From contig OX597842.1 of NCBI GenBank assembly GCA_951406725.2, positions 434,001-498,000 on the forward strand: 64,000 bases of DNA. The letters are read 5' to 3'. A program made the translations under genes and the position numbers. Source of the DNA: Octopus vulgaris. Taxonomy: Eukaryota. The number at the start of each line of letters is the position of its first letter. The first letter of the stretch is position 1. Shown here piece after piece: positions 47,521 through 50,950 of this stretch. Below the pieces are notes generated by a model that was given only the letters and a program-made list of their open reading frames with translations, did not search any database and was not told where the DNA came from.

Positions 47521-49886
47521 TATATATATATATATATATATATATTAAATCAGTGATATAGAATTACTGTACTCTAAAGGAATTCAAAGGTGTAACATAA
47601 TCCATGTAAAGGCAATCCTTGAATTAAATCCACCAATCATTGGATCATAGAATCTCTTCACACAAGCCACCTTATCTAAGCATTATCCAACCCTAATAAG
47701 ATTATGTACGATGGAAATCCTCCAGTATCAACATATATAAACCTCACAAACCATGAATCCGCAAACACTTTCGACCTTATGAGAACGAAGGATAATTCAA
47801 ATATCAATTCCCATCATCAGCTGCCTAACTGCTATCATGATGATTTTGACACCTTGGCAGTATATGTATGAACATATGTGTGTTTGTGAGCATTTGTTAC
47901 TGTCTCCTTACTGGATGTGATTATTGTAAATGAGTGTTATCATCATGCAAGTGTTGTCTTTTATTTCCAGTCTTCCATGAAAATCATGTGTGGCCATGGA
48001 GAAATATTACCTGGCTTGGAAATGGGTGTTGGCAATAGGAAGGGTTTCTGTACATAGAAAATCTGCCTCAACAAGTTCTGTCCAACCCAGCAAGCATGAA
48101 AAAGTGGGTGTTAAAACTATGATGATGATCATGATCATCATCAACATCATCATCGTTTAATGTCTGCTTTCCATGCGTTGGATGGTTTGACTGAGGACTG
48201 GCAAGCCAGAAGTCTGCACCAGGCTCCAGTCTGATCTGGCAAAGTTTCTACAGCTGGATGCCCTTCCTAATGTCAACCACTCCGAGAGTGTAATGGGAGC
48301 TTTTATGCGCCACCGGCATGAGGGCCAGTAAAGCAGTTCTGGCAATCATCATCATCGTCGTTTAACGTCCGTTCTCCATGCTAGCATGGGTTGGACGGTT
48401 CGACCGGGGTTCTGGGAAGCCAGAAGGCTGCACCAGGCTCCAGTCTAAATTTGGCAATGTTTCTACAGCTGGATGCCCTTCCTAACGCCAACCACTCCGT
48501 GAGTGTAGTGGGTGCTTTTTACGTGCCACCTGCACAGGTGCCAGGCGGGGCTGGCAACGGCCACGGTCAGATTGGTGTATTTTATGTGCCACCGGCACGG
48601 AAGCCAGTCGAGGCGGTGCTGGCATCGGCCACGAGTCGGATAGTGCTTTTTACGTATCACCAGACCAGGGATCCTGGCTGGTTCAATTCGATAAAATGTG
48701 TTTTTTACATGCTACCAGCATGGGAGCCAGTACAGTGGCACTGGTGGCAACCACGCTCAAATGCTGTTTTTCATGTGCCAGTGAGGCGACGTTGGCAACG
48801 ATCATGCTCAATTAGTGCTTTTTACATGCTACCAGCATGGGAAGATGATAAAATATTTATGTATGAGTGTGTGTATGTGTATATATAACAAGAGCACTCA
48901 GAGGGCATAAACCTCTGCCAAGGCAACACCAATGTCCTCTCAACGATTAGCCAGAGATGATTTTTAAAATGAGAATATCTGAAATGAACTCAACTGCTCT
49001 CAGAAATGAGAATATTAAAAATGAACCCAACTGCTCTCAAAAAGTAAGTAAAAAAATAAACAGGAAAAATACTCCAGAATCCTTGTTTGGTACTGGATTG
49101 ATCCCAAAATCTAATCAGTTTGTGCCACTAACAAGGCCAAACGTCCCTGAAAGTTTCATGCAAATCCATTCAGCAGTTCTTGAGATATCTTGTCCATGGA
49201 CTAACAAACATAACTGAAAACAATACCTTCGCCTTCACAAAGGCAGAGATAATAATAATAATGATGATGATGATCCTTTCTACTATAGGCACAAGGCCTG
49301 AAACTTTGAGGGAGGGGATAGTCGATTACGTCAACATTAGTCTACAACTGGTACTTATTTTATACACTCCAAAAGGGTGAATTCAGAATGTAAAGATGGA
49401 CAAAATGTCGCTAAGCATTTTGCCCGGTGTGCTAATAACAATTCTGCCTCCTCATTGCCTAACTAACGATAAGGATGATTCAAAATTTTGGCACAAGACC
49501 AAAAATTTTAGTGGGTGTGGCTTTCTCTATTACATCAACCCCAGTTTTGTATTTTATTGGTTCTGAGACCCTGCAAGGCAAAGTAGACCTCGGCAGAATT
49601 TGAACTCAGATTGTAAAGAGTTAGAAAAACACTGCTAAGCATTTTGTCCATCACTTCAATGAGTCCCCTTGCTTGCTACCTTCACAATAACAATATTAAT
49701 AATCCTTTCTACTATAGGCACAAGGGCTGAAATACTGGTGGGGTGGGGGGGTCAATTGCATCGAGCCCAGTGTTTCACTGGTATTTAATTTATCGACCCT
49801 GAAAGGATGAAAGGCAAAGCTGATCAGGATTCTGATCTTAACTGATTGTGAAAGCATAAAAGAAAAGAGGTGATACATGGAATAAA

Positions 49887-49926
49887 GTCACTGAAGAGGT
49901 CACAGGTGTGACGAAAGAACTTTGAC
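49887..49926 (+). ncRNA. Type I hammerhead ribozyme, intact core
   Basis: GTCA-CTGAAGA-G-GTCACaggtGTGAC-GAAA-GaaC-TT-TGAC. 4-bp stem I, 5-bp stem II with tetraloop, all core residues present, minimal stem III, CUU triplet. Confidence 0.75.
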
Positions 49927-49959
49927 AAAGGAACTAAAATAATAATAATAATAATGATG

Positions 49960-50521
49960 ATGGATGCCCTGATGCAGTACCAGGCAGTGGCTCTCATGGC
50001 TTCTGATCTTAACTGATTGGAAGTGTTATCATGTACATTGTTTTGACTTGGTATAAAAAGATGGGCTACAGCAAATATTCTGCTCAATACCACCGATTTG
50101 CTTGTCAGTTGTTTGACCTTAACCAGTTGAGCATGTCCCTTAGTGGCTGACGATATGTGCATCTCTGATCACGAGCAGAAGTAGTGGGGGAGCATCATAG
50201 CCATGTGTTGAGAGGGATTCTTTGGGGTTTGGATAATTCACCTCTGGAAACATGGGTGTTTCGCTCAACATCCTTAAACAACCCTTATTCAGGGACCTTT
50301 TGAGCGGGATGGGTTACTTGACCAGAAGGAAATTCTAACTGGGCTCCACCTGCAAGGTCATGTACTGTTTATCTTGATATGTGATCACCATGTTGTGCAC
50401 ATATGGTTGTGATGCATGTGCCTAGTGTACCCTTATCAGATGGGTAGTCATGATGGGTATACTGGGCTTTGTATATTTTACCCCAGTGTCACTTTGATGG
50501 CATGCACTGCTCTCTCACTCA
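49960..50521 (+). mobile_element. Unclassified ~560-bp element between trinucleotide tracts, (TAA)n tail
   Basis: Second copy at 39690-40200 in opposite orientation. Confidence 0.8.
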
Positions 50522-50568
50522 ATAATAATAATAATGTTAATGTTAATAATAATAATAACAATAATAAC

Positions 50569-50601
<33 letters not shown>

Positions 50602-50604
<3 letters not shown>

Positions 50605-50950
50605 GAAAGGTCGAGAGATATGACACAACAAGGTATGCGATAAAGAAAAAAGAAAAGTCAAGAGATATGACAGGTTAGCTTGGGAAGTTAAGCAGTTGTG
50701 GTTGATGAGAAAGGTAGCAGTAATACCAATAACTGTCGGAGCCCTGGGAACAGTGAGCAAAAATCTCAAGAAGTATGCACAACAAATAGGGGCTGCAATA
50801 AGGGTGGAGCACTTGCAGAAAACAGCACTGCTTGGAACCACTTGAATACTCCGGGAGGTGCTCGAAAAATAAGAGGTGTTACCTTAGTTCACAGGTAGTG
50901 AACAGCTGACACCGTAGTACATCATCAGTGTTGGAAGCTGTGCAAAGGCA
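50602..50950 (+). pseudogene. Second R4/Dong-like RLE-LINE 3' end
   Basis: KEKEKVKRYDRLAWEVKQLW…VIPITVGALGTVSKNL…EHLQKTALLGTT*ILREVL. (TAA)n on both sides. Confidence 0.8.

What the first reader, a model, noticed from the sequence alone, without database searches (positions are those of the whole stretch)
49887..49926. Compact hammerhead ribozyme with a fully intact catalytic core
Seen: GTCA|CTGAAGA|G|GTCAC-aggt-GTGAC|GAAA|GAAC|TT|TGAC. All conserved core nucleotides and perfect stems I and II fit in 40 nt, about 10 nt upstream of a (TAA)n tail. Known: type I hammerheads with a tiny stem III are typical of Penelope-like terminal repeats, and an extra base between A9 and G10.1 is tolerated (CChMVd plus-strand hammerhead). 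Inference: this is the end of a self-cleaving retroelement family unrelated in sequence to the other motifs here, and the best candidate for activity.
Basis: partly seen in the sequence, partly recalled or inferred. Interest (0 to 1): 0.75.

Follow-up and report, generated by a model that had tools for sequence, protein, structure and literature searches.

The report
Hammerhead relic of Penelope-like retrotransposon
This is a real copy of the small self-cutting RNA motif that Penelope-like jumping genes are known to carry, left in a broken 100-base scrap that is likely silent here, while young relatives in the same genome often begin exactly at the predicted cut site, which likely means the family's RNA does cut itself in the animal.

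Summary
The motif is exactly as described and is not chance. It is a type I minimal hammerhead in a roughly 100-nt relic of the terminal repeat (pLTR) of a Penelope-like element (PLE), an arrangement published in 2014. A relaxed pattern matches 4,611 places. The TAA run is internal to the element, not its tail. This copy is a poor candidate for activity: it is solitary, belongs to an old subfamily, has a shortened loop II, a weak helix III and a competing hairpin. The relatives are more interesting. The youngest subfamily has an intact 1,312-codon RT/GIY-YIG frame between two hammerheads and has replaced core A9 by C in 3,426 pattern matches. Nine of 41 short (TA)n-flanked copies start exactly at the predicted cut, against 1.4 expected, which points to cleavage in vivo. 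Cleavage was not assayed. The scan noted PLE hammerheads and a similar footprint before, on other DNA.

The parts
49852..49954 (+). Relic of the pLTR of an old Penelope-like subfamily (A), truncated at both ends; left edge approximate
   Evidence: 47 matches among 40 scored of 491 candidates, mostly 80-92% identical; alignment to longer copies; no further element sequence in the window
49887..49926 (+). Type I minimal hammerhead motif; predicted scissile bond between 49922 and 49923 (triplet CUU)
   Evidence: pairs counted across subfamilies
49898..49898 (+). Extra nucleotide (G) between A9 and G10.1, the family state
   Evidence: G in 80 of 87 subfamily A copies; published consensus is H, G in 1 of 56 published motifs
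49899..49912 (+). Stem II, 5 bp with 4-nt loop; 3 nt shorter than the family state of 6 bp with 5-nt loop
   Evidence: deletion shared only with the local duplicate L002
49916..49921 (+). Helix III strand; two pairs around a non-palindromic AA loop
   Evidence: forced self-duplex +2.4 kcal/mol against -0.4 for the commoner A state
49869..49874 (+). Upstream strand predicted to pair with 49887-49892 and sequester stem I, C3 and U4
   Evidence: -11.0 against -9.0 kcal/mol for the hammerhead-like fold; stem I probability 0.03-0.08 with 30-120 nt flanks
49940..49954 (+). (TAA)5 run, internal to the pLTR and a target of other repeats
   Evidence: family continues beyond it in most copies; the same foreign repeat sits at this run in L017 and other repeats do so in L010, L015, L016
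49955..50522 (.). Unrelated repeat that replaces the 3' part of the pLTR; edges approximate
49847..50608 (+). Segment duplicated, inverted, about 237 kb away on the same contig; the duplicate's hammerhead has C3 changed to U
   Evidence: 88% over 795 columns against L096; L002

Best explanation
The motif is a minimal type I hammerhead carried in the terminal repeat of a Penelope-like retrotransposon, and this copy is a truncated relic of an old subfamily that is likely silent at this locus. In intact elements the motif lies about 135 nt upstream of the start codon and again after the RT/GIY-YIG frame (shown in subfamily D). On a tandem transcript two motifs would pair through helix III, probably helped by the element's protein, and would cut after position 17 (inferred from published work). 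Reverse transcription starts about 120-170 nt downstream of the cut (inferred from where copies end) and usually copies uncut RNA; when it meets a cut RNA it would run off at position 1.1, which explains the excess of short copies starting there (excess shown, cause inferred). The window copy arose as a 5'-truncated insertion, lost its 3' part at the TAA run, took a 3-nt loop deletion and was later duplicated locally.
For: Element link: longer subfamily A copies carry a decayed linker Zn-finger and GIY-YIG frame about 450-900 nt upstream (46-65% identity to the D protein). Sister subfamily B carries the RT core. Subfamily D has an open 1,312-codon frame between two direct hammerhead repeats 4,598 nt apart (Pfam RVT_1 E 1.8e-4 and GIY-YIG E 2.3e-3 on L198, both below curated cut-offs). 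13 of the 30 loci hold a diverging inverted pair, the PLE signature (PMC8557442). Architecture fits the published motif: extra base after A9, G10.1-C11.1, short stem I (PMC4209133). Stem I covaries between subfamilies at two pairs. Relic status: A copies differ 10.5% (median, 68 copies, 57 nt) from their majority state; no partner motif within the window or 8 kb either side; the duplicate lost C3; a tested monomer of this class did not cut. Family cleavage: 22 of 30 inspected loci out of 58 matches begin at 1.1; 9 of 41 (TA)n-flanked 5' ends fall on 1.1 against 1.4 expected from a simulation with flank microhomology, P 8e-6, next highest position 4.
Against: No cleavage assay and no raw RNA reads. 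The footprint comes from subfamily D; for the window's own subfamily only 1 of 4 testable loci starts at the cut, at a 2-nt microhomology. One search has no control of its own and several of its junctions show TG microhomology. A transcription start at the same base would give the same footprint. Covariation is thin: stem II never changes on both sides, 18 of 500 shuffles reach the score, and the 12 rows were hand-picked. The competing hairpin wins by only 2 kcal/mol, and a sister A copy and a B copy also lose stem I in the same folding test, so that test does not single out this copy. The copy is identical over 49855-49928 in two DNA runs with other organism labels and differs once in a third; close kinship explains this, but constraint is not excluded.
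Confidence: 0.8

Rival explanations
1. This copy is an active or host-retained ribozyme that cuts a transcript at this locus, alone or by pairing in trans with other copies.
For: All core bases, G10.1-C11.1 and both stems are intact. Isolated, the 44-mer forms stems I and II with probability above 0.9. Unchanged in two other DNA runs. pLTR copies are very numerous, so trans partners exist.
Against: 8 of 88 sampled sister copies are as intact, so intactness needs no selection. The duplicate lost C3. Helix III dimer is unfavourable (+2.4 kcal/mol). Two monomers co-fold into a different, non-hammerhead duplex. Extra G was detrimental in CChMVd.
Confidence: 0.1
2. The excess of copies beginning at position 1.1 marks the element's transcription start or a template-switch hotspot, and the hammerhead of this lineage no longer cuts.
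For: The youngest subfamily replaced A9 by C and its newest branch has U17, yet kept spreading. Hammerhead mutants did not affect insertion in vitro and no RNA reads ended at the cut in the anole element (PMC11167929). Three junctions share one TGG microhomology.
Against: The peak falls on the exact predicted scissile bond. The simulation already allows for flank microhomology. An RT stall would be expected at the 3' edge of a stem, not at the 5' end of its arm (inference). C9-linked haplotypes also show the peak, 5 of 26.
Confidence: 0.3
3. It is the 3' end of a non-autonomous retrozyme or SINE-like element with a (TAA)n tail.
For: A TAA run follows the motif; most copies are short; this genome reportedly holds retrozyme-like arrays (earlier notes, unchecked).
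Against: The family runs on past the TAA run into the start of the PLE frame. Copies are 5'-truncated at variable points and grade into RT/EN sequence. No tandem array at this site.
Confidence: 0.03
4. Chance match to the hammerhead consensus.
For: No Rfam hit; folding z-score near 0.
Against: 0 hits in 200 shuffled windows; thousands of family matches with 0 in controls; fixed position in a PLE terminal repeat.
Confidence: 0.01

Closest known systems
Minimal hammerheads (min-HHR) in pLTRs of metazoan Penelope-like elements (Cervera and De la Pena 2014, PMC4209133; main text parts 1-2 of 4 and supplement file 2 parts 1-2 of 3 read)
   Same: Type I topology, extra base between A9 and G10.1, G10.1-C11.1 pair, 4-bp stem I, rudimentary helix III, place in the pLTR, solitary or inverted-pair copies; CUU triplet occurs in 3 of their 56 examples.
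   Different: Extra base is G (1 of 56 there; consensus H). Loop III is AA or AG, not palindromic, in subfamilies A and D. Subfamily D has C at position 9 (0 of 56 there). No cephalopod is in their list.
C-terminal EN+ PLEs with a linker Zn-finger, Neptune and Nematis clades (Craig et al. 2021, PMC8557442; introduction, passages and supplement part 54 read)
   Same: Single frame, RT then CX4CXXC linker then GIY-YIG with CCHH, partial tandems, inverted 5' copies, (TA)n targets, optional 3' extension.
   Different: Linker spacing (7 aa to the next Cys) resembles their Nematis rows more than Neptune. The RT3-RT4 interval is 131 aa, about twice that of the canonical rows. No tree with named elements was built, so the clade is undetermined.
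Poseidon element of the green anole, PAc (PMC11167929; passages and second half of main text read)
   Same: Hammerhead near the start of the frame; copies end at two nearby points downstream of it.
   Different: There no RNA-seq read ended at the cut, cutting needed the protein, and insertion did not need cutting; here genomic copies pile up at the cut. Its start codon lies inside the motif; here it is 135 nt downstream of C3.
CChMVd plus-strand hammerhead (via review PMC3705267, passages read)
   Same: Extra nucleotide between A9 and G10.1.
   Different: Its extra base is A; G at that place was strongly detrimental. It is a full hammerhead with a stable helix III and loop-loop contacts.

Membership tests
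min-HHR of metazoan PLEs | Core CUGANGA, GAAA, UH in type I order | tested here: met
min-HHR of metazoan PLEs | Extra nucleotide between 9 and 10.1 | tested here: met
   G49898; identity departs from consensus H but G occurs in 1 of 56 published motifs
min-HHR of metazoan PLEs | G10.1-C11.1 pair and stems I and II | tested here: met
min-HHR of metazoan PLEs | Positions 15.2 and 16.2 complementary | tested here: met
   G49917 with C49920; G-C in A and D, G-U in B and C
min-HHR of metazoan PLEs | Loop 3, when present, palindromic | tested here: not met
   AA in this copy and in D, AG in most A, palindromic AU only in B and C. The paper lists this as a recurrent trait outside its search descriptor, so it lowers expected dimer stability rather than family assignment.
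min-HHR of metazoan PLEs | Located in the pLTR of a PLE | tested here: met
min-HHR of metazoan PLEs | Compensatory changes within families | tested here: inconclusive
   two stem I pairs change on both sides; 18 of 500 shuffles reach the score; hand-picked rows
min-HHR of metazoan PLEs | Self-cleavage as a dimer | not testable with these tools
   only an indirect genomic footprint in subfamily D
C-terminal EN+ Penelope-like elements | One frame with RT followed by GIY-YIG bearing CCHH | tested here: met
   intact in D; decayed in A and B copies; absent from the window copy itself
C-terminal EN+ Penelope-like elements | pLTRs from partial tandems and inverted 5'-truncated copies | tested here: met
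   L194; 13 of 30 loci with inverted pairs
Neptune or Nematis clade | CX2-5CxxC linker Zn-finger | tested here: met
   CX4CXXC in D and B
Neptune or Nematis clade | RT phylogeny places it in the clade | not tested
   no named reference proteins were available; the RT3-RT4 interval is atypically long
Non-LTR retrozymes | Tandem non-coding repeats, each with a type I hammerhead | tested here: not met
   single copy at this site; family grades into a coding element

The most novel reading that the evidence does not exclude
This octopus PLE lineage keeps a working hammerhead after replacing the conserved core base A9 by C in its youngest autonomous subfamily, and the genome records the cleavage as short copies that begin at the scissile bond: a natural A9C ribozyme in thousands of copies, with genomic evidence that PLE hammerheads cut in vivo as a minor side path of transposition.
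Probability: 0.45. Interest if true: 0.55.

Novelty: new member of a known kind. Interest (0 to 1): 0.33.

Why it matters
The copy itself is ordinary. The family offers a handle on an open question: whether PLE minimal hammerheads cut in vivo and what for (called unclear in PMC8557442; no cut-site reads found in PMC11167929). An intact, near-identical subfamily with natural A9 and C9, and C17 and U17, versions side by side, plus a countable footprint at the cut, makes this directly testable. The footprint is small: roughly 40 purine-flanked starts (22 of 30 scaled to 58) among about 3,800 matches. That fits cutting being a side path rather than a required step.

Tried and rejected
Rfam: no hammerhead among the 150 of 475 hits shown for the window nor among the 4 hits for 49800-49990. 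No RNA holder listed for 49820-49940. In one search the one guessed-RNA run had no cover over 49832-49880; three guessed-RNA runs covered the D terminal repeat but not the frame beyond it, and no start or end cluster was reported. These are contigs and say nothing on expression or cutting. Pfam found nothing significant in eight decayed frames and nothing in the whole 1,312-aa protein; only sub-threshold RT and GIY-YIG hits in parts. A homologue search with a decayed EN piece found none. The representative search gave 6,157 unnamed relatives and no clade name. The pLTR tree supports D as a clade (100/100) but some A and B labels in it were mis-assigned by my script, and A9 and C9 copies are only roughly ordered (93/86, two exceptions). 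An excess of the old, A9-linked haplotype among cut-site copies appeared in one sample (10 of 21 against 5 of 28, P 0.03) but not in the (TA)n-flanked set (3 of 8 against 6 of 28), so I do not claim that A9 cut better. The 'forced 6 bp' energies are invalid where they include non-canonical pairs and were ignored. I first called the element Neptune from recalled motifs; the supplement rows did not bear this out. Lunse et al. 2017 (PMC5785218) is not held and supplement file 1 of PMC4209133 could not be searched; either may list A9 or extra-G variants. Literature searches for an A9C variant, for octopus PLE hammerheads and for truncation at the cut site found none in the held library.

Full report
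Observation. A descriptor scan found this as the only hammerhead-like hit on either strand of the window, and none in 200 locally shuffled windows. Folding of the 40-mer gives stems I and II but no unusual energy. Rfam has no hammerhead hit on the stretch.

Family. A search of the 2.8-Gb genome gave 47 matches among the 40 best of 491 candidates. Exact patterns for core plus stem II gave 838 matches for the CUGAAGA form, 3,426 for a CUGAUGC form and 4,611 for a relaxed form; reversed controls gave 0. The copies fall into subfamilies A (the window's), B, C and D. The family does not end at the TAA run: it continues about 140-180 nt into what is the start of the protein frame. Several unrelated repeats have inserted at that run, including, in L017, the one that follows the window copy. 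Thirteen of the 30 loci hold a diverging inverted pair.

Element. Walking upstream, longer A copies carry a decayed linker Zn-finger and GIY-YIG frame and a B copy carries the RT core. Subfamily D is young: seven 1.2-kb RT-EN stretches are 97.3-100% identical. L194 holds an open frame of 1,312 codons between two direct hammerhead repeats 4,598 nt apart, with the ATG 135 nt after C3 and the 3' end running into (TA)n. Pfam gives sub-threshold RT and GIY-YIG hits. The D protein matches A-type loci at 46-65%. Its nearest named relative is an Octopus vulgaris protein at 98%, so the genome is most likely an octopus. Recently active Penelope-like families are known there, without mention of ribozymes in the main text (PMC13282606, passages).

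This copy. It spans about 49852-49954, with no further element sequence and no second motif in the window or the 8 kb on either side. A copies differ from their majority state by a median 10.5%. Seven of 87 sampled A copies, 8 of 88 with one mis-binned copy, are as intact as this one; the sample was chosen by likeness to the motif, so this overstates the share. The copy has a 3-nt deletion in loop II, shared only with an inverted local duplicate that has lost C3. With 30-120 nt of flank, stem I falls to probability 0.03-0.08 because 49869-49874 pairs with 49887-49892; the margin is only 2 kcal/mol and other copies also lose stem I in this test. The helix III self-duplex is unfavourable. A monomer of this class did not cut and dimers cut weakly (PMC4209133). 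The copy is unchanged over 49855-49928 in two DNA runs under other organism labels and differs once in a third, which close kinship explains. It is most likely silent.

Covariation. Between subfamilies, stem I pair 2.3-1.3 is U-A in A and C-G in D, and 2.1-1.1 is A-U or G-U in A and G-C in B; pair 15.2-16.2 is G-C or G-U; stem II hardly varies. On 12 hand-picked rows 95.5% of cells pair and 18 of 500 shuffles reach the score: supportive but thin.

Does the family cut? In D, a pattern that demands a purine where position 17 should be gave 58 matches; 22 of the 30 inspected have no ribozyme upstream and start at 1.1, and 8 are point mutants. As an internal control I collected all D 5' ends within 30 nt of a TATATATA flank (41 loci): 9 fall on 1.1, no other position has more than 4, and a simulation with uniform breakpoints and real flanks expects 1.4 (P 8e-6). 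The simplest cause is reverse transcriptase running off a cut RNA; a transcription start at the same base is the rival. For subfamily A the test lacked power: 1 of 4 loci.

The A9 change. Subfamilies A, B and C and the older D copies have A9. Most D copies, including those with intact frames, have C9. Among typed copies that keep the core, the younger downstream haplotype carried A9 in 0 of 29 and the older in 6 of 8. Five of 26 young-haplotype (TA)n-flanked copies start at the cut, so C9-linked RNA appears to be cut too. All 56 published PLE motifs have A9 and the section on natural core variants in PMC3088659 names none at position 9 in its text (figure not seen). Searches found no A9C report, but Lunse et al. 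2017 was not available.

Mechanism, shown and inferred. Shown: motif, family, place in the element, tandem and inverted layouts, A9 to C replacement, excess of starts at 1.1. From the literature: dimer through helix III, weak activity, protein assistance, insertion not needing cleavage, internal RT start (PMC4209133; PMC6765202 passages; PMC11167929). Inferred: that the excess reflects cleavage, and that the window copy is silent.

Verdict. The value lies in the young relatives. Other papers seen: bioRxiv 10.64898/2026.07.22.740005 (part 1 of 5), PMC1636495, PMC6155905 and PMC3376415 (passages). The labels Dong/R4 and SINE for neighbouring repeats are recalled, not tested.

Noticed in passing
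L194:1513-5448 (-); G000:C1:59392000-59401999: Intact 1,312-codon PLE frame between two direct hammerhead repeats, with further inverted partial copies; subfamily D looks recently active (97-100% identity).
   Followed up: yes
L194 protein and P0001-P0266: The RT3-RT4 interval is 131 aa here and 130-139 aa in 103 of 111 measurable homologues, about twice the canonical PLE rows of PMC8557442 Fig. S1, although the endonuclease is C-terminal. An insertion at this place was reported for N-terminal EN+ clades and sporadically Coprina; this may be an unnamed lineage.
   Followed up: partly
L194, L197, L168; one search place 5541: Within C9 copies position 17 is C in most and U in the newest branch, a second natural core-adjacent change.
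   Followed up: partly
L140, L152, L092: Subfamily B has a fully pairable palindromic helix III strand, a C at 17 and a bulged stem I; on paper the best dimer candidate of the lineage, though its copies are old.
   Followed up: partly
window 50600-50880: 3' end of a frame that resembles restriction-like-endonuclease non-LTR elements of the Dong/R4 type, between TAA runs (resemblance recalled; no Pfam hit).
   Followed up: partly
L096:5050-5150 (-): A second, more decayed subfamily A piece lies 570 nt upstream of the duplicate copy in the same orientation, separated by other repeats.
   Followed up: no
window 49825-49846: Short piece resembling the repeat at 49995-50020, between a truncated upstream repeat and the start of the duplicated segment; may record how the duplicate was inserted.
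   Followed up: no
L080:202-861, L081:484-1002: Open frames that resemble Mariner-type transposases beside PLE copies (recalled resemblance).
   Followed up: no
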